Positions 31,774-39,333 of a stretch of DNA of 64,000 bases are shown here, in pieces. Positions within the stretch are counted from its first letter, which is position 1; each line of letters begins with the position of its first letter. Origin of the DNA: Bacteroidales bacterium. Its GTDB lineage: Bacteria > Bacteroidota > Bacteroidia > Bacteroidales > JBGRPZ01. The notes beneath the pieces are model-generated. The model was given only the letters and a program-made list of their open reading frames with translations. It made no database searches and was not told where the DNA came from. Where the stretch lies: the NCBI GenBank assembly GCA_041725955.1, contig JBGRQE010000006.1, positions 37,593 to 101,592 of the forward strand. The letters run 5' to 3'. The position numbers and the translations under genes are program-made.

Positions 31774-33222
31774 TTACAGTTGAGCATAAACGAGTTGTGC
31801 TATAAGCTTCGAAACATTAAAAAGGCCTGCCTCATTAAATAATGGCGCGATAAGTTGAATTCCTAGAGGAAGATTATTGTCCCCCTTTCCTGTCGGAATA
31901 TTTATTGCTGGTAGCCCTGTTAAATTGGCCAGTACAGTAAAAATATCCATTCGGTATTGATCCTGAAAAGAGAGTTGTTCCTCTTTTTTGCAAGCAGTTA
32001 AAGGACATGTAGGTGAAATAATAAATGAATTGCCCTTAAGAATTGAATGGATTTCGTTGGATAAAGATTTTCTAAATACTTGTGCTTTTTGGTAATAATT
32101 ATTTCGCTGCGCTTTATGTAGCGCATATGATCCAAATACAATTTTTCTCTTGACTTCATTTCCCAAAAAAGTCGTTCGGTTTTTTGTAATTAAATCTTTT
32201 GCAGAAGATTGTTCTTCTAAACTTTGACCATATCTGATTCCATCAAATCGCCCCATATTTGAACATGCTTCGGCACAAGCAATCATTTGAAAAGCCTTGA
32301 CTTGTTCTTTTATGGAAGGAATTGATTTCTCTTTTATGGAATATCCTTTTTCCGAAATAGACTTTACTATGCCAATGTAGTTGTTATATACATCAGATTG
32401 TAAAGGAATTATTTCTTCTAGTTCTTTGATTCGGATAAAACTTGGTTTATCTCTTTGTTTGTCATCCAACGGCAAATATGCTTCTGTTCCACAACTAGGA
32501 ATAGATAAATCTCTGCCATCAGCACCAGAGACAATCGATAAAGTTTTTTCAATATTGCCCAAATCATTACTCATAATACCTAAGTGATCCAAGCTATTGG
32601 CATATGCGATTAAACCAAAGCGTGAAATTCTACCATATGTTGGTTTTAAGCCATAAATACCACACCATGAAGCCGGGAGTCTTACGGAACCTCCAGTGTC
32701 TGAGCCTATAGCTATGTGACAAAGATTAAGTGCCACTGCAGCAGCAGAACCTGAAGAGGAGCCTCCAGAGACATATGCTTTGTTGTGAGGATTTAGTGTG
32801 GTGCCATATGATGAGAATTGCCCTGTACTGCCCATCGCAAATTCATCACAATTTGTACGCCCAACAATTATAGCTCCATTTGCGATTAGTTTATTTACAA
32901 TAGTGGCAGAATATGGAGCTATAAAACCCTTTAGAATCTTTGAAGATGCTGTACAATGGTGACTTTTATAAAGAATATTGTCTTTTATGGCAACGAGCAT
33001 ACCTTCAAGAGGTTTTTCTTTTTTCAATCTAAAGTTTTGATCTGCAATTTTTGCTTTATTAAGTATTTCTTCAGTAAATACCTCAATAAAAGCATTATGC
33101 TTTTTTTGTTTGTCCGCCTCCTCAAGAAAATGTTCCACTATAGAAACTACCGAAATACTATTTTCCTGAAATAGTGTTCGCAGTTTTTCGTAATTATGGA
33201 TGTTCTCTCGTATTTTCTTCAT
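31774..33222 (-). CDS. gatA: Glutamyl-tRNA(Gln) amidotransferase subunit A
   Basis: It has the amidase signature GGSSSGSAAAVA ... GSDTGGSVRLPASWCG and is about 482 aa. I prefer the ATG at 33222. Confidence 0.88.
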   Translation of the reverse strand: MKKIRENIHNYEKLRTLFQENSISVVSIVEHFLEEADKQKKHNAFIEVFTEEILNKAKIADQNFRLKKEKPLEGMLVAIKDNILYKSHHCTASSKILKGFIAPYSATIVNKLIANGAIIVGRTNCDEFAMGSTGQFSSYGTTLNPHNKAYVSGGSSSGSAAAVALNLCHIAIGSDTGGSVRLPASWCGIYGLKPTYGRISRFGLIAYANSLDHLGIMSNDLGNIEKTLSIVSGADGRDLSIPSCGTEAYLPLDDKQRDKPSFIRIKELEEIIPLQSDVYNNYIGIVKSISEKGYSIKEKSIPSIKEQVKAFQMIACAEACSNMGRFDGIRYGQSLEEQSSAKDLITKNRTTFLGNEVKRKIVFGSYALHKAQRNNYYQKAQVFRKSLSNEIHSILKGNSFIISPTCPLTACKKEEQLSFQDQYRMDIFTVLANLTGLPAINIPTGKGDNNLPLGIQLIAPLFNEAGLFNVSKLIAQLVYAQL

Positions 33223-33527
33223 AGACAAAAAAAACAATGCAGATTGCAGGCCCAAGCGCAACCTTAGTTTTGTGTGTGTTTTTAATTCTTTTACTTGATT
33301 CTTGTTCGATGCTATGGGAGTATATTACTCCATAAACCCGTGTCTGATTGCAAAGATATTAAAGTTTTATGGCTTTTTCCTTTGATTACTGTCATAATAA
33401 AACTTAAAGAATAGAAATTAAGGAATTTGGGGGTTGTATTTAGTATTTCTGACTTAAAATTACATAGATATAAGGTGTCGAAATTTCAGACACTAAATAA
33501 AACTTAAAAACTTAAATTTTGAAATAT

Positions 33528-33535
33528 TATCTTTG
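33528..33535 (+). promoter_or_regulatory. -7 promoter box TATCTTTG
   Basis: It matches TAnnTTTG and ends 41 nt upstream of the ATG at 33577. Confidence 0.35.
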
Positions 33536-33576: not shown

Positions 33577-34515
33577 ATGGCAAAGAATGTAAAGGAGTTA
33601 GAGTTTCAAAAGATTTTAGAAATCTTGCACGAGCACGATTCTGAGTCGGTATATGAGCGCATTAATAAGATTCCAAAAAGTAAAGAATTGTATGATACTA
33701 TTGATGAGTATGTAGATATCAAACATCTTACACGCAGATCGGTATTGGGAATCGATATTTATCGCTATGGTTTATTTAAGCATTTGGAGCAGACTTTAAT
33801 CCCTCCATTATTTAAAATTCTGATGGAAAAGGCTATTCGTCTTAGTCTTGAAAATAACCAATTTGTATTTCAAAAATATACAAGAGAGCGTATTCTAAAA
33901 TCATTTATTAGTACCGGCGATGGTGGATTTATGATTTTTGAAACTCCATTACATTCGTTGTTTTTTGCCATTAATTTCGAGATGGTAGTCCGTGCTTATA
34001 ACTCTTATCATTTATATCCGAAATTACGAAATATTATTGGAAGTATTTCTTTACGTTATGCCATTACTAATGATACTATTTTTCAATTTGATGATAATCA
34101 TTACGGATCTGCAATCATCAATAATTCCAGGATTTTAGAGAGAGATAGCCTGAATAGGTGTTTGGTAGATCAAAATACTCACGATTGGTTTTTAATAAAT
34201 ATTGATGGAATAGAAAATTTGCAAGTCTATACAATTTATGACCTAGCAAATATTTATGAATTTCAATCGTATGATACATCATTGATTGATCATGGAGAGA
34301 ATTTGGTTTTGAATAAAGATCATACCCGATTAACAGGAGTTTTAAATTCTGATATATCAAGAATCGGACAAATACGTTCTAAGGAAAGATTATTAGATAT
34401 TTATAATTTACATTTGCAGGTAAGTATGTTTATTTCTGCAGATAATCGGAAGGATAGTAAAAGACGAATTACTATCAGTTTGGGGAACTTAAATACAGCT
34501 GGAATAGACCATTAG
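33577..34515 (+). CDS. Hypothetical protein with class III nucleotidyl-cyclase-like (palm-fold) motifs and no sensor or effector domain
   Basis: Three stretches line up with recalled cyclase homology domain motifs. SVLGIDIYRYG resembles FxDIxGFT, the first metal-binding Asp. ISTGDGGFMIFE resembles the GD motif with the second Asp. LRYAITNDTIFQF..HYGSAIINNSRILE resembles RiGihtG...fG..vNxAxRle, although the N-to-R spacing is one residue shorter than canonical. Confidence 0.4.
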   Translation: MAKNVKELEFQKILEILHEHDSESVYERINKIPKSKELYDTIDEYVDIKHLTRRSVLGIDIYRYGLFKHLEQTLIPPLFKILMEKAIRLSLENNQFVFQKYTRERILKSFISTGDGGFMIFETPLHSLFFAINFEMVVRAYNSYHLYPKLRNIIGSISLRYAITNDTIFQFDDNHYGSAIINNSRILERDSLNRCLVDQNTHDWFLINIDGIENLQVYTIYDLANIYEFQSYDTSLIDHGENLVLNKDHTRLTGVLNSDISRIGQIRSKERLLDIYNLHLQVSMFISADNRKDSKRRITISLGNLNTAGIDH

Positions 34516-34527
34516 AATCATTAAATT

Positions 34528-35745
34528 ATGCATGAGAAGATAGAAATAAAAACAGATAATTTTCCGAAAGTAGTTCTAAAGAGAGGAAAAGAACTTCCTA
34601 TAAAGAAATATCATCCATGGGTGTTTTCTGGAGCAATTAAGTATATTGAAGGTAATCCGGAAGAGGGTGATGTTGTTGAGGTATATTCTTCTTTTGATGA
34701 TTTTTTAGGTCTAGGTCATTTTCAAGAGAATAATACGATAAGTGTTCAGGTATTTTCTTTTGAACCTTATGTTCCAGATATTGATTTCTGGAAAGAACGC
34801 TTGCGCAGAGCTTTTTTGCATAGAGAGCAATTGAGTTTTGTAAGTGGTATTGAAACCAATGCTTATCGTTTGGTGCATGGAGAGGCAGATATGCTTCCCG
34901 GTTTGATTATTGATTATTATAATGGAACTATTGTTTTTCAAATTACTTCTATGGGAATGTATAAACTTCGTTATCTCTTTGCGCAGTTTTTACAGGAACT
35001 TTATGGTGAACGACTAATTTCTGTTTATGATAAAAGTGCTGAAAGCTTATATAAAAATACAGGAGTACCTTGTCGTGATAGCTTCTTATTAGGTGAAGCA
35101 GGTCAGGAAACCATAAAGGAAGCTAATTTATTTTATCGTGTAGATTGGAGGTTTGGAAATAGAACAGGCTTCTTTTTAGATCATCGTGAGGGAAGAGCAT
35201 TATTGTCGAGATATGCTAAAGATAAAAAAGTATTAGACTTATTCTGCTATTCAGGAAGCTACACGATTAATGCCTTGCGAGCAGGTGCTAAGATGGTTCA
35301 TTCTGTAGACACCTCTCAGATGGCTATTGACAATCTTCGTGAGAATATTGTATTGAACGATCTTCAGGGAGCACATCAAGAGAGTTTTGTTGCAGATGCC
35401 AAGAAGTTTATGAGTGCAATGCCTGAATCTACTTATGATGTAATAGTAATTGATCCTCCAACTTTAGCAAAAACTTCCTCTATGGAATCTATTGCAATAA
35501 AGGGATATAAGAAGCTTAATGCTCAGGCTATGTCAAAGATAAAATCTGGAGGACTAATATTTTCTTTCTGTAGTTCCAAGATTATTGGAGTGGAGCAATA
35601 TCGTTCAATAATATATTCTGCAGCCCTAGATACAGGAAAGAAAGTGAGCATTTTAAGGCAAATACACCAACCTGAAGATCACCCGATAAGCATATATGTT
35701 CCAGAGCGAGAGTATCTAAAGGGATTTGTTATTCGCATCGATTAA
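34528..35745 (+). CDS. rlmI: Class I SAM-dependent 23S rRNA (cytosine-C5) methyltransferase, RlmI-type (PUA + MTase)
   Basis: It has an N-terminal PUA-like region (LKRGKELPIKKYHPWVFSGAI), RLVHGEADMLPGLIIDYY, and the methyltransferase motifs VLDLFCYSG and VIVIDPP. Confidence 0.8.
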   Translation: MHEKIEIKTDNFPKVVLKRGKELPIKKYHPWVFSGAIKYIEGNPEEGDVVEVYSSFDDFLGLGHFQENNTISVQVFSFEPYVPDIDFWKERLRRAFLHREQLSFVSGIETNAYRLVHGEADMLPGLIIDYYNGTIVFQITSMGMYKLRYLFAQFLQELYGERLISVYDKSAESLYKNTGVPCRDSFLLGEAGQETIKEANLFYRVDWRFGNRTGFFLDHREGRALLSRYAKDKKVLDLFCYSGSYTINALRAGAKMVHSVDTSQMAIDNLRENIVLNDLQGAHQESFVADAKKFMSAMPESTYDVIVIDPPTLAKTSSMESIAIKGYKKLNAQAMSKIKSGGLIFSFCSSKIIGVEQYRSIIYSAALDTGKKVSILRQIHQPEDHPISIYVPEREYLKGFVIRID

Positions 35746-37206: not shown

Positions 37207-38160
37207 TTATTGCAAGTATTCTTGGGGTTCAAATCCAAAGGTTTGTTTAAATAATTTCGAGAATTCTTCTATAGATTTATACCCCAAAAGCTTTGCTGTT
37301 TCTTCTATAGATTTTTTCTTGTTGAAATAGCTTAAAGCTTTGTCCATTCTAGTTTTTATAACAAACTGACTAATTGTATTTCCATAGAGTTCGAAGATTA
37401 GAAGTTTTAGCCTATCTAAAAAAATGCCTGTTTTTTCAGCAACATATTCATCTGTATAGTAAATCTTAGGATTATGTTTGATTTCGTTTTGCATATTAAG
37501 TAGTGCTTTTGCTTCTTCTTCTTTAAGGTAGATTTCAGTGTTTTTTTCTAATGAATTAAAGAAAAGAGAGCATAACTCAATTGCTTTACCATATGCATAT
37601 TGCTTTCTAAAGTCTCCTTCCTCAAAAGAAATCATAACATCTGTCAAAATCTTTATTATCTCTTTTGAAGGCTCTTGATGAAAAAGAAATGAATCTAATG
37701 CCATTAAAGAATACAAGTACTGCTTTTCTTTAAATTCAAAAAATTTTTTTGCAAAGGTTTTTGTAAACAAAAGGCAAAATTGAAAGTAAATTTCGTTGGG
37801 AGGGATAATCACAGTTCTCTTATAATTTGCAGTTCCAAAGTATCCTCCACATTTTAATTTTGAAGTAAACGTAGCCTTGCCTCTTTGTTCGGATAGAGTA
37901 ACATTTCTGGGCAGATAAAAATCCAGAGATAAGAGATCGTCATTATCAGTTCCTATTCTAACCAATAATGATTCATAGTTTGTATTTGAACATAAAAAAG
38001 AAAGGCTAAAGTTTTCGGGATAGTCATAAACTTCAATATGTAATTTTCCCAGCGATTCAGGCATGTCGAAAGTATGCCCCAGCCATGGTGCTCCAACCAT
38101 TCTGGCAAATTCGGAAGCTACTTCGATGTAGTTGTTTAGTTTATATCTGTATACAATCAT
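37207..38160 (-). CDS. AraC-family transcriptional regulator (paralog A)
   Basis: It has a C-terminal AraC HTH (LLGYKSIEEFSKLFKQTFGFEPQEY) and an uncharacterised N-terminal domain of about 200 aa. Confidence 0.8.
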   Translation of the reverse strand: MIVYRYKLNNYIEVASEFARMVGAPWLGHTFDMPESLGKLHIEVYDYPENFSLSFLCSNTNYESLLVRIGTDNDDLLSLDFYLPRNVTLSEQRGKATFTSKLKCGGYFGTANYKRTVIIPPNEIYFQFCLLFTKTFAKKFFEFKEKQYLYSLMALDSFLFHQEPSKEIIKILTDVMISFEEGDFRKQYAYGKAIELCSLFFNSLEKNTEIYLKEEEAKALLNMQNEIKHNPKIYYTDEYVAEKTGIFLDRLKLLIFELYGNTISQFVIKTRMDKALSYFNKKKSIEETAKLLGYKSIEEFSKLFKQTFGFEPQEYLQ

Positions 38161-38361: not shown

Positions 38362-39333
38362 TTAGGCAGATAAATTACCTTTTTGATATTCACTAGGTAA
38401 AAAACCAAATGTTTGTTTAAAAGCTTTGGAAAAGTGACTTAAGTTAGAGTATCCAATAAGGTATCCGGTTTCACTTACCGTTTTTCCTTCGCTAAGGAAA
38501 GACATGGCTTTATCCATTTTTAACTTCTTTACGAATTGCCCAATGCTGCTTCCATAGAGTTCGTTTAGGAGTATTTTTAAGCGGTAATGTGATAAACCTG
38601 TTTTCGCTAAAATATATGGGATTGTAAATTCTTTTGCAGGATTATGAAGAATTTCTTTTTGGAGTTCATAAAGTAATGCAGCTTCATAATCGCTAAGATG
38701 AATTTCGGGGCATTGTTCTAATGAGTCAAAAAACAAAGTAGCAAGTTCAAGGGCTTTTGCATAAGCAAATTGTTTTCTGTAATGATTCTCGTCAAATGAT
38801 AGCATAATGTTGGTTAAAACATTAATAAGCTCGCGTGAAGGAGGTTGATAAATAAAAAAACGATCTAAATTCATTAAAGACTGAAGGGTTTTACTTTTAT
38901 TTGGTGAAAGTTCAAAAAACCTCTTTAAGAATGTTCTGCTTAATATAATATTAAATTGAAAAAAGTTTTCTTTGGCAGGTATCTTAATTGTCGATTTATA
39001 ATTCGAAGTGCCAAAGTAGCCCCCATACTTTAATTTGCTAAAGCCTTCTTCTCCTTCTTCAATAGATAGTTTTACATCTTTGGGAATATAAAAATCTAAG
39101 GTAAGTAAGTCTTCATTGTCAGTACCTGTACGAACAAGGTTTGATTCATAGTTCATAAATGAACTAAGGAAGGAAACACTAAAGTTATCTTCATAATTAT
39201 ACACTTCTATATGTAGCTTTCCTAGTGTCTCTGGCATTTCAAAATAATGTCCATGCCAGGGAACATTAATCATTTTTGCAAAGCCCGAGGCACAACTTAT
39301 GTAGTCATTTACTATGTAACGATAGACAATCAT
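38362..39333 (-). CDS. AraC-family transcriptional regulator (paralog B)
   Basis: It has the same architecture as 37207..38160 and shares MIVYRY, GKLHIEVY, LVRxGTDNxDLLxLDFY and FKQTFGF. Confidence 0.8.
   Translation of the reverse strand: MIVYRYIVNDYISCASGFAKMINVPWHGHYFEMPETLGKLHIEVYNYEDNFSVSFLSSFMNYESNLVRTGTDNEDLLTLDFYIPKDVKLSIEEGEEGFSKLKYGGYFGTSNYKSTIKIPAKENFFQFNIILSRTFLKRFFELSPNKSKTLQSLMNLDRFFIYQPPSRELINVLTNIMLSFDENHYRKQFAYAKALELATLFFDSLEQCPEIHLSDYEAALLYELQKEILHNPAKEFTIPYILAKTGLSHYRLKILLNELYGSSIGQFVKKLKMDKAMSFLSEGKTVSETGYLIGYSNLSHFSKAFKQTFGFLPSEYQKGNLSA

What the first reader, a model, noticed from the sequence alone, without database searches (positions are those of the whole stretch)
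33577..34515. Stand-alone minimal class III cyclase-like protein only 12 nt upstream of rlmI
Seen in sequence: a 312-aa protein with no transmembrane, sensor or effector domain carries, in the correct order, stretches resembling the cyclase homology domain. These are VLGIDIYRYG (first metal Asp), STGDGGFMIFE (second metal Asp) and LRYAITND....HYGSAIINNSRILE (purine/transition-state Asn-Arg region, with spacing one residue shorter than canonical). Its stop lies 12 nt before the start of the rRNA methyltransferase gene rlmI, and I saw no terminator between them.

Established knowledge: the class III cyclase and GGDEF palm folds make cNMP or cyclic-oligonucleotide signals. Minimal cyclases of this type act in Pycsar-type antiphage systems, but there they sit next to an effector gene.

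Inference: no effector is adjacent here, so this is either an orphan signalling cyclase with a remote receptor, a degenerate non-catalytic palm domain, or something functionally tied to ribosome modification.
Basis: partly seen in the sequence, partly recalled or inferred. Interest (0 to 1): 0.6.

Follow-up and report, generated by a model that had tools for sequence, protein, structure and literature searches.

The report
Unannotated stand-alone cyclase-fold enzyme family
This gene encodes a soluble 312-residue protein with the fold and metal/phosphate-binding residues of adenylyl/guanylyl cyclases; it belongs to a strongly conserved, unannotated family in some Bacteroidales, and its position next to rlmI is a local accident.

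Summary
The ORF (33577-34515, +) and all quoted motifs are real. No Pfam, NCBIfam, PADLOC, PHROG or PDB sequence model recognises the protein. An AlphaFold2 model (pLDDT 95.5) matches class III cyclase catalytic domains with two independent aligners (Foldseek prob 1.0; VIA Z up to 14.9, 158 of 164 residues of Ma1120). GGDEF domains score Z 8.4 or less.

Across 84 diverse homologs, both metal Asp (D60, D115), the beta4 Arg (R160), the transition-state Arg (R185) and the hairpin Lys (K269) are invariant. The canonical transition-state Asn position is Ile (82/84). The base-specifying Lys/Asp positions are Ile/Asn.

The family has 277 clusters at 50% identity. It is always about 300 aa, never fused and single-copy. 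It was found in 26 of 151 family-level lineages of the order and not on phages, plasmids or viral contigs.

The rlmI adjacency occurs only within the genus. Other neighbours are unrelated housekeeping genes, and no effector is conserved. The protein evolves slowly.

Best reading: a physiological, sensor-less, divergent class III-type NTP-converting enzyme, probably a cyclase, with an unknown product. This scan met the same family before on other genomes, with concordant conclusions.

The parts
33577..34515 (+). Gene for the 312-aa stand-alone cyclase-homology-domain (CHD) fold protein
   Evidence: ORF. Homologs align from residue 3-4 to the end. AF2 pLDDT 95.5. Class III cyclase structural matches.
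33577..33717 (+). N-terminal helical extension (residues 1-47; helices 10-20 and 36-46), weakly conserved in sequence
   Evidence: Secondary structure of the model. Consensus is mostly 'x' here. Alignments to PycC structures (8jsz, 7r65) span the model from residue 1.
33718..34170 (+). CHD core, first part (residues 48-198): beta1 with D60, beta2-beta3 turn with D115, beta4 with R160, alpha4 with I181/R185
   Evidence: hhalign register against 31 canonical CHDs. Conservation counts. Structural alignments cover about 48-282.
33754..33756 (+). Codon GAT = D60, first metal-binding Asp (84/84 conserved)
33919..33921 (+). Codon GAT = D115, second metal-binding Asp in TGDGGF (84/84)
34054..34056 (+). 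Codon CGT = R160, equivalent of the 'RIGIH' beta4 phosphate-binding Arg (84/84)
34117..34119 (+). Codon ATC = I181, at the position of the canonical transition-state Asn (Ile in 82/84)
34129..34131 (+). Codon AGG = R185, equivalent of the canonical transition-state Arg (84/84)
34171..34335 (+). Helical insertion (residues 199-253) where canonical CHDs have a single helix; contains conserved W204, F205, E213
   Evidence: Model secondary structure. Conservation. Structural alignments skip most of this stretch, with about 160 residues aligned over the range 48-282.
34336..34512 (+). Long beta7-beta8 hairpin with K269 in the turn (codon 34381-34383, 84/84), an extra strand and the conserved C-terminal LGNLNxxGI motif (G303, N304, N306, G309)
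   Evidence: Placing K269 as the equivalent of the canonical 'VKGK' Lys is inferred from its position in the hairpin turn.
33528..33535 (+). TATCTTTG, a match to the Bacteroidetes -7 promoter consensus TAnnTTTG, 42 nt upstream of the ATG (others at 33265 and 33562)
   Evidence: Sequence. Three matches lie in the 315-nt intergenic region against a background of one per 1.1 kb. The consensus is taken from established knowledge; function was not tested.
34516..34527 (+). 12-nt spacer between the CHD gene stop and the rlmI start; no terminator
34528..35745 (+). rlmI-type 23S rRNA m5C methyltransferase gene (PUA + SAM methyltransferase). It is a neighbour, not a partner.
   Evidence: Pfam and NCBIfam hits. 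The adjacency is confined to the genus. A TAnnTTTG motif at 34409 could give rlmI its own promoter.

Best explanation
The gene encodes a soluble, sensor-less, single-domain enzyme of the class III nucleotidyl-cyclase fold. It belongs to a previously unannotated, slowly evolving chromosomal family found in a minority of Bacteroidales lineages.

Proposed mechanism, by analogy with class III cyclases (inferred). The protein forms a head-to-tail homodimer. D60 and D115 hold two divalent metal ions. The DIYxYS loop, R160, R185 and K269 bind the triphosphate of an NTP. A hydroxyl then attacks the alpha-phosphate and pyrophosphate is released.

The residues that read the base (Lys to I111, Asp to N174) and position the ribose (Asn to I181) are replaced by other conserved residues. 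The substrate and/or product therefore probably differ from canonical cAMP/cGMP synthesis and are unknown. The most likely product is still a cyclic mononucleotide, read by receptors encoded elsewhere in the genome.

It is a physiological gene, not a defence gene. Its 12-nt spacing to rlmI reflects local gene order in one genus only.
For: Shown:
- Fold: AF2 pLDDT 95.5 / pTM 0.92. The Foldseek top ~50 hits are all class III AC/GC domains, best E 1.4e-7, prob 1.0, TM 0.73.
- VIA against 48,161 chains: the top 25 hits are all CHDs, Z 14.3-10.2, with GGDEF at 8.4 or less. The second look gave Z 14.9 and 158/164 residues of Ma1120 at 2.4 A.
- Register and residues: hhalign against 31 canonical CHDs, P 0.0036, above all shuffled controls. 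D60, D115, R160, G177, R185 and K269 are 84/84 conserved.
- Family: 860 hits and 277 clusters, all about 300 aa. No genuine fused forms: one longer hit, a transposase read-through. Single copy in every carrier.
- Not mobile or defence-linked: no PADLOC or PHROG hit. None on phages, plasmids or viral contigs. Neighbours are housekeeping genes that differ by subclade.
- Slow evolution: within the genus, 78% identity against 62% (HAMP-cyclase), 57% (RlmI) and 48% (amidase).
- cNMP signalling context: one canonical PF00211 cyclase and six cNMP-binding proteins in this genome. 25 of 26 carriers also have PF00211, against 70 of 125 non-carriers.
Against: - The canonical transition-state Asn is Ile in 82/84 members, and neither adjacent Asn is invariant. 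In canonical enzymes, loss of this Asn strongly lowers turnover (established knowledge).
- The base-specifying Lys/Asp pair is absent.
- Sequence-level homology to PF00211 is weak: no HMM hit and hhalign probability only 9%.
- Dimerisation, substrate, product and activity are all untested.
- No receptor or phosphodiesterase is genomically linked.
- A shared fold does not prove a shared reaction; GTP cyclohydrolase III and polymerases share the palm fold.
Confidence: 0.55

Rival explanations
1. Same fold and two-metal chemistry, but not a mononucleotide cyclase. The enzyme would transfer NMP to an external hydroxyl, as a nucleotidyltransferase or oligonucleotide synthase in the manner of GGDEF/Cas10 palms, or would hydrolyse NTP.
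For: The ribose-positioning Asn is replaced by a conserved hydrophobic Ile. The base-contact Lys/Asp positions are Ile/Asn. The GDGG turn leaves unusual space next to the second metal Asp. Family-specific invariant residues D190, R194, D198 and the C-terminal GNLN motif have no canonical counterpart.
Against: Structural similarity is clearly highest to true cyclases (Z 14-15) and much lower to GGDEF/Cas10/polymerase palms (Z 8.4 or less). No acceptor-related partner gene is conserved.
Confidence: 0.17
2. Catalytically dead pseudo-cyclase that only binds a nucleotide or metal and acts as a regulator or scaffold.
For: Loss of the canonical Asn and of the Lys/Asp specificity pair. No HMM-level similarity to active cyclases.
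Against: Both metal Asp, both Arg and the hairpin Lys are 100% conserved over 84 sequences at about 30% identity. That pattern is hard to explain without catalysis or at least full triphosphate-metal binding.
Confidence: 0.13
3. C1-like partner of the co-occurring membrane HAMP-cyclase. A heterodimer would combine the orphan's metal Asp pair and R160 with the HAMP-cyclase's Lys/Thr/Asn/Arg, giving one canonical site and one degenerate site, as in mammalian C1/C2.
For: Full-length orthologs of the 720-aa HAMP-cyclase are in 22 of 26 carriers but only 4 of 125 non-carriers. In all 21 HAMP-cyclase orthologs the beta4 Arg is Gly (SGIGIHTG) while Asn, Arg, Lys and Thr are kept. This is the reciprocal of the orphan's deficit.
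Against: The co-occurrence may be plain shared ancestry, and no tree-aware test was possible. There are eight discordant genomes. These include a closed genome with the HAMP-cyclase but no orphan (G450), and an orphan carrier with no PF00211 at all (G424, 93% complete). HAMP proteins are themselves homodimers. The two genes are never adjacent.
Confidence: 0.05
4. Pycsar-like antiphage cyclase whose effector is encoded elsewhere.
For: It is stand-alone and has N-terminal helices like PycC. PycC structures are among the structural hits, with the longest aligned lengths (8jsz Z 12.3, 197 residues).
Against: No PADLOC hit even at E 10. No TIR/TM effector in any of 82 neighbourhoods. Core housekeeping context. 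Absent from phages, plasmids and viral contigs. Slow evolution, whereas immune cyclases evolve fast (preprint 10.64898/2026.08.12.744502). Canonical AC/GC domains are structurally closer than PycC.
Confidence: 0.04
5. Functionally coupled to RlmI or ribosome modification.
For: 12-nt spacing with no terminator. In another subclade the downstream gene is TrpRS, which is also translation-related.
Against: rlmI is adjacent only in the same-genus genome, and in none of the other 87 loci (79 + 8). Downstream genes elsewhere are an aminotransferase, ZnuA and GH31. A promoter-like motif lies upstream of rlmI inside the CHD gene.
Confidence: 0.02

Closest known systems
Class III adenylyl/guanylyl cyclase catalytic domain (CHD, Pfam PF00211), e.g. 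minimal Ma1120 (4WP9/5D0E), Rv1264 (1Y10/1Y11), sGC beta1 (8HBF), AC C2 (1AZS)
   Same: Same fold over essentially the whole minimal domain (Z 14-15, rmsd 2.3-2.8 A, about 160 residues). Same order and register of motifs. Invariant two metal Asp, beta4 Arg, alpha4 Arg and hairpin Lys.
   Different: Below every HMM threshold. The transition-state Asn is Ile. The Lys/Asp (or Glu/Cys) specificity pair is Ile/Asn. The turn reads GDGGF instead of GDxYM. It has an extra N-terminal helical extension, a roughly 55-residue helical insertion, a longer beta7-beta8 hairpin and a conserved C-terminal GNLN motif. No sensor or transducer domain is ever attached.
Pycsar pyrimidine cyclases PycC (7R65, 8JSZ, 8JSF, 6YII; PMC11224242)
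   Same: Stand-alone proteins of about 250-300 aa with a CHD core plus N-terminal helices. Non-canonical base-reading residues. Only the metal Asp pair is universally shared.
   Different: No adjacent PycTIR/PycTM effector, no PADLOC match, housekeeping chromosomal context and slow evolution. Structurally less similar (Z 10.2-12.3) than canonical AC/GC domains.
DUF2652 (PF10851) 'nucleotide cyclase-like proteins' of Actinobacteria, Bacteroidetes and Proteobacteria (PMC4886424)
   Same: Unfused cytosolic cyclase-like proteins, also found in Bacteroidota. Language-model neighbours.
   Different: No Pfam hit in any of 84 members. hhalign score 18.2 is at noise level, whereas DUF2652 against PF00211 scores 46.3. 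DUF2652 keeps a Glu-Lys/Arg specificity pair.
Class VI adenylate cyclase / DUF3095 (PF11294), R. etli CyaC type
   Same: Stand-alone protein of about 390 aa said to have a class III-like core (from memory). Present in Bacteroidota (26/151 genomes).
   Different: No Pfam hit. hhalign gives only an out-of-register local match. Absent from the window genome.
Class V adenylate cyclase of Prevotella ruminicola D31d (AAC12946.1; Cotta et al. 1998, cited in PMC10427991)
   Same: An unclassified cyclase from a Bacteroidales organism.
   Different: Unknown. None of the named family members is called adenylate cyclase.

Membership tests
Class III nucleotidyl cyclase CHD (PF00211) | [quoted passage not shown] | tested here: met
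   Foldseek prob 1.0, E 1.4e-7. VIA Z 14.3-14.9, about 160 residues at 2.3-2.8 A.
Class III nucleotidyl cyclase CHD (PF00211) | Match to the Pfam model above the gathering score | tested here: not met
   No PF00211 hit at E up to 1 for the protein or any of 84 homologs. hhalign P 0.0036, probability 9%.
Class III nucleotidyl cyclase CHD (PF00211) | Two metal-binding Asp (beta1 and beta2-beta3 turn) | tested here: met
   D60 and D115 are 84/84 conserved and in register.
Class III nucleotidyl cyclase CHD (PF00211) | Transition-state Asn on alpha4 | tested here: not met
   The position is I181 (82/84). N182 is 45/84 and N183 is 64/84.
Class III nucleotidyl cyclase CHD (PF00211) | Transition-state Arg on alpha4, plus phosphate-binding beta4 Arg and beta7-beta8 Lys | tested here: met
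   R185, R160 and K269 are all 84/84 conserved. R160 and R185 are in hhalign register. K269 is placed from its position in the hairpin turn.
Class III nucleotidyl cyclase CHD (PF00211) | Purine-specifying pair (Lys/Asp-Thr or Glu/Cys) | tested here: not met
   I111 (73/84) and N174 (70/84) occupy these positions.
Class III nucleotidyl cyclase CHD (PF00211) | Head-to-tail dimer with interface active sites; NTP to cNMP + PPi activity | not testable with these tools
   No multimer prediction, model coordinates or assay were available.
Pycsar (PycC cyclase + effector) | Adjacent cNMP-activated effector (PycTIR or PycTM) | tested here: not met
   No such gene in 82 neighbourhoods; the frequent neighbours are all housekeeping genes.
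Pycsar (PycC cyclase + effector) | Match to PADLOC PycC models | tested here: not met
   No hit at E up to 10.
Pycsar (PycC cyclase + effector) | N-terminal helix extension that is the hallmark of PycC | tested here: inconclusive
   The model has N-terminal helices, and alignments to 8jsz/7r65 start at residue 1. Equivalence of the helices was not checked residue by residue.
GGDEF diguanylate cyclase (PF00990) | GG[DE]EF signature and Pfam match | tested here: not met
   No Pfam hit. The motif here is TGDGGF. The best GGDEF structure scores Z 8.4 against 14.9 for CHDs.
DUF2652 (PF10851) | Pfam match or profile similarity | tested here: not met
   No hit. hhalign score 18.2, within the shuffled-control range.
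DUF3095 / class VI AC (PF11294) | Pfam match or in-register profile similarity | tested here: not met
   No Pfam hit. The hhalign match is out of register.
Class V AC (P. ruminicola AAC12946.1) | Sequence similarity to the single founding member | not testable with these tools
   The sequence and the paper are not held.

The most novel reading that the evidence does not exclude
A housekeeping-context, sensor-less cyclase-fold enzyme whose ribose- and base-reading residues have been replaced (I181, I111, N174) makes a product other than cAMP/cGMP. Candidates are a pyrimidine or otherwise non-canonical cyclic nucleotide, or an NMP adduct. That product would serve as a physiological rather than antiphage signal in anaerobic environmental Bacteroidales. 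The enzyme might work together with the co-occurring HAMP-cyclase that lacks the reciprocal Arg.
Probability: 0.2. Interest if true: 0.7.

Novelty: new variant of a known kind. Interest (0 to 1): 0.4.

Why it matters
Cyclic-nucleotide signalling in Bacteroidales is poorly charted. This family is invisible to Pfam, NCBIfam and PADLOC annotation, yet it is strongly conserved (65-70% identity across many family-level lineages) and keeps a full metal/triphosphate site.

If active, it adds an unregulated or differently regulated nucleotide-signal source to these genomes. Its altered base and ribose pocket could mean a new product. At the least, it deserves a curated family model, so that hundreds of 'hypothetical proteins' get a fold-level name.

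It also shows that tight spacing to a neighbour (12 nt to rlmI) is not evidence of a functional link.

Tried and rejected
- **Sequence libraries.** Pfam, NCBIfam, PADLOC and PHROGs gave nothing. PDB sequence searches with the single protein and with the profile also gave nothing.
- **Context tool.** Context came from the search for related loci and the genome search instead.
- **Fused forms.** Only one hit, a transposase read-through artefact.
- **Regulatory RNA.** No riboswitch or Rfam family and no stable fold upstream in the window. No Rfam family either in the dnaG-CHD gaps of other loci.
- **DUF2652 paper (PMC4886424).** It concerns a different family.
- **DUF3095 / class VI.** Not related in register.
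- **Class V AC.** Could not be obtained.
- **Controls for the HAMP-cyclase co-occurrence.** Both failed. The MFS transporter is unique to this genome, and the 'GatA-like' amidase is itself rare in the order. Phylogenetic confounding therefore remains unresolved.
- **LigT-like phosphoesterase (divergent, 10 loci) and inorganic pyrophosphatase (+2, 8 loci).** Considered as partners and rejected, because each is confined to one closely related subclade.
- **Active-site geometry.** Model coordinates are not exposed to scripts, so the geometry and the dimer could not be examined.

Full report
**Observation.** The window holds a 312-codon ORF at 33577-34515 (+). A 12-nt spacer follows, then a 405-codon gene at 34528-35745 whose product carries PUA and SAM-methyltransferase domains and best matches RlmI models. 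No terminator-like hairpin lies between the two genes. Peak hydropathy is 1.22, so no membrane segment is indicated. The flanking genes are an amidase and an MltD-like LysM/SLT protein (divergent, upstream), and an MFS transporter and two AraC regulators (downstream). This is not a defence island.

**Family.** No Pfam, NCBIfam, PADLOC or PHROG model matches, even at permissive thresholds. PDB sequences do not match either, with the single sequence or with a profile.
- The protein has 860 relatives in the 5.8-billion-protein set. The best hits are 65-79% identical proteins of about 310 aa, named only 'hypothetical protein', from Bacteroidales or Bacteroidota MAGs and Lentimicrobium.
- An exhaustive phmmer search finds 277 clusters at 50% identity, nearly all about 300 aa and aligned end to end.
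- A search for longer proteins found only a transposase read-through, so the family is consistently unfused.

**Fold.** An 84-sequence alignment (A1, 28-64% identity to the query) gave an AlphaFold2 model with mean pLDDT 95.5 and pTM 0.92.
- Foldseek against the PDB returned class III adenylyl/guanylyl cyclase domains for all of the roughly 50 best rows. The best was Ma1120 (4wp9_A): E 1.4e-7, probability 1.00, TM 0.73 normalised to the target.
- An independent all-against-all aligner over 48,161 representative chains placed 25 cyclase-homology domains on top (Z 14.3 to 10.2). These included the Pycsar cyclases 8jsz, 7r65, 8jsf and 6yii. GGDEF domains followed at Z 8.4 or less.
- A second look at Foldseek's hits gave Z up to 14.9, with 158 of the 164 residues of Ma1120 aligned at 2.4 A.
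- The alignments run from about residue 48 to 282. The whole protein is therefore one expanded CHD: an N-terminal helical extension (1-47), a helical insertion (199-253), a long beta7-beta8 hairpin and a short tail. It is not a cyclase domain plus a separate C-terminal domain.

**Residues.** I collected 31 canonical PF00211 domains from this genome and phylum and ran hhalign against A1.
- The score was 28.2 (pairwise P 0.0036). That is above a reversed control (12.6) and all 20 column-shuffled controls (17.5 or less).
- The register is unambiguous. D60 matches the beta1 metal Asp, and D115 the 'IGD' metal Asp. R160 matches the 'RIGIH' Arg, and N174 the specificity Asp. G177 matches the conserved Gly, I181 the transition-state Asn, and R185 the transition-state Arg.
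- Across the 84 sequences D60, D115, R160, G177, R185 and K269 (in the beta7-beta8 turn, where canonical enzymes have the 'VKGK' Lys) are invariant. I181 is Ile in 82. N182 and N183 are Asn in only 45 and 64. The Lys-specificity position is Ile or Val (I111, 73/84 Ile).
- So the metal and triphosphate machinery is intact, while the ribose- and base-reading residues are replaced by other conserved residues.

**Relation to other cyclase-like families.**
- The Biol Direct paper on 'uncharacterized nucleotide cyclase-like proteins' deals with DUF2652. Our family has no DUF2652 hit, and its hhalign score against 15 DUF2652 members is at noise level (18.2). DUF2652 against PF00211 scores 46.3.
- DUF3095 (class VI type) gives only an out-of-register local match.
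- Language-model neighbours are all PF00211 or DUF2652 clusters.
- PF00211 is thus the nearest known family, and this is a more remote branch than DUF2652.
- The class V cyclase of Prevotella ruminicola could not be compared.

**Context and distribution.** Of 82 loci with DNA around a homolog, only the 78%-identical ortholog (L004) has rlmI downstream. The same holds for the 'same genus' genome L126, and for none of eight further order-level loci.
- De novo clustering of all flanking ORFs found no universal neighbour.
- The recurrent neighbours are subclade-specific housekeeping genes: TrpRS immediately downstream (14 loci), DnaG upstream (25), an aminotransferase followed by inorganic pyrophosphatase, and ZnuA. 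The rest are GH31, a divergent LigT-like phosphoesterase, nitroreductase and DUF3857/3858 proteins.
- No TIR, transmembrane effector, CARF/SAVED or phosphodiesterase partner is conserved.
- The family is absent from 50,697 phage records, 72,556 plasmids and the viral contig collection.
- It occurs in 3 of 301 genomes sampled across the class. It occurs in 26 of 151 genomes sampled at roughly one per family across the order, always as a single copy.
- Within the genus pair it is 78% identical. The HAMP-cyclase is 62%, RlmI 57% and the neighbouring amidase 48%.
- Slow evolution contrasts with the fast evolution reported for immune cyclases (preprint 10.64898/2026.08.12.744502).

**Signalling context.** The genome has one canonical cyclase, a 720-aa HAMP-CHD protein. 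It also has six cNMP-binding-domain proteins: fusions to a fumarase/aspartase-type lyase, a histidine kinase and an NTE/patatin phospholipase, plus three Crp-type regulators. Remote receptors therefore exist. Of the 26 carriers, 25 have a PF00211 protein, against 70 of 125 non-carriers.

**A lead on the HAMP-cyclase.**
- Full-length orthologs of the HAMP-cyclase are present in 22 of 26 carriers and in 4 of 125 non-carriers.
- All 21 orthologs examined have Gly at the beta4 Arg position while keeping Lys, Thr, Asn, Arg and the hairpin Lys. That is the reciprocal of the orphan's pattern.
- This could hint at a C1/C2-like heterodimer, but shared ancestry explains the co-occurrence equally well.
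- Two attempted controls were uninformative.
- Eight discordant genomes argue against an obligate pair. They include a closed genome with only the HAMP-cyclase (G450) and a carrier with no PF00211 at all (G424).

**Expression signals.** Three matches to the Bacteroidetes -7 consensus TAnnTTTG lie in the 315-nt region upstream of the gene (33265, 33528, 33562). The background is one per 1.1 kb. One more lies at 34409, 112 nt before the rlmI start. Co-transcription with rlmI is possible but not required. No Rfam family or stable structure lies upstream.

**Verdict.** The rlmI link and the Pycsar analogy are not supported.
- The most likely function is a homodimeric two-metal NTP-converting enzyme of the class III type, with an altered substrate/ribose pocket, acting in normal physiology. 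The product is unknown.
- It is a new, unannotated variant of a known enzyme kind.
- The same family was met by this scan on at least three other genomes (notes e1-3611991, e1-5072936, e1-3616113). Its fold, distribution and non-defence character were independently re-derived here.
- New in this report: the residue-level mapping (Asn to Ile), the controls on profile similarity, the exclusion of DUF2652 and DUF3095, the evolutionary-rate comparison and the HAMP-cyclase co-occurrence.

Noticed in passing
L084:115-2274:+ (G000 contig C5), with orthologs L130-L149: The genome's only canonical class III cyclase is a 720-aa HAMP-CHD protein. In it and in all 20 orthologs examined, the beta4 'RIGIH' Arg is Gly (SGIGIHTG). 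Orthologs co-occur with the orphan CHD family: 22 of 26 carriers against 4 of 125 non-carriers.
   Followed up: partly
L085:1402-3240:+ (G000 contig C7): [quoted passage not shown] This is an unusual candidate for a cNMP-regulated metabolic enzyme.
   Followed up: no
L086:637-1866:- and L087:1357-3195:+: Further cNMP-binding fusions in the same genome: CNB + HisKA/HATPase histidine kinase, and CNB + NTE P-loop + patatin phospholipase.
   Followed up: no
L004 (JBGRPZ010000017.1) and L126 (G468): The contig with the closest ortholog (78%) and the same CHD-rlmI arrangement is labelled 'Hyphomicrobiales bacterium' in its record. The genome search places an equivalent genome in the same genus as the window, and every other relative is a Bacteroidales/Bacteroidota genome. 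The record label is probably wrong.
   Followed up: partly
window 31774-33261 (-): The GatA-like amidase next to the finding is not a universal gene in this order (8 of 151 genomes at E 1e-90). It is only 48% identical within the genus, so it is probably an accessory amidase rather than the tRNA amidotransferase subunit.
   Followed up: partly
window 37207-38160 (-) and 38362-39333 (-): Two tandem paralogous AraC-type regulator genes (317 and 323 aa) have very similar N-terminal halves.
   Followed up: no
L005, L006, L007, L008, L009, L010, L012, L014, L017 (about 100 nt upstream, divergent): In one subclade a LigT-like 2H phosphoesterase gene is divergently adjacent to the CHD gene. This is suggestive for cyclic-phosphate metabolism, but it is confined to closely related genomes.
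   Followed up: partly
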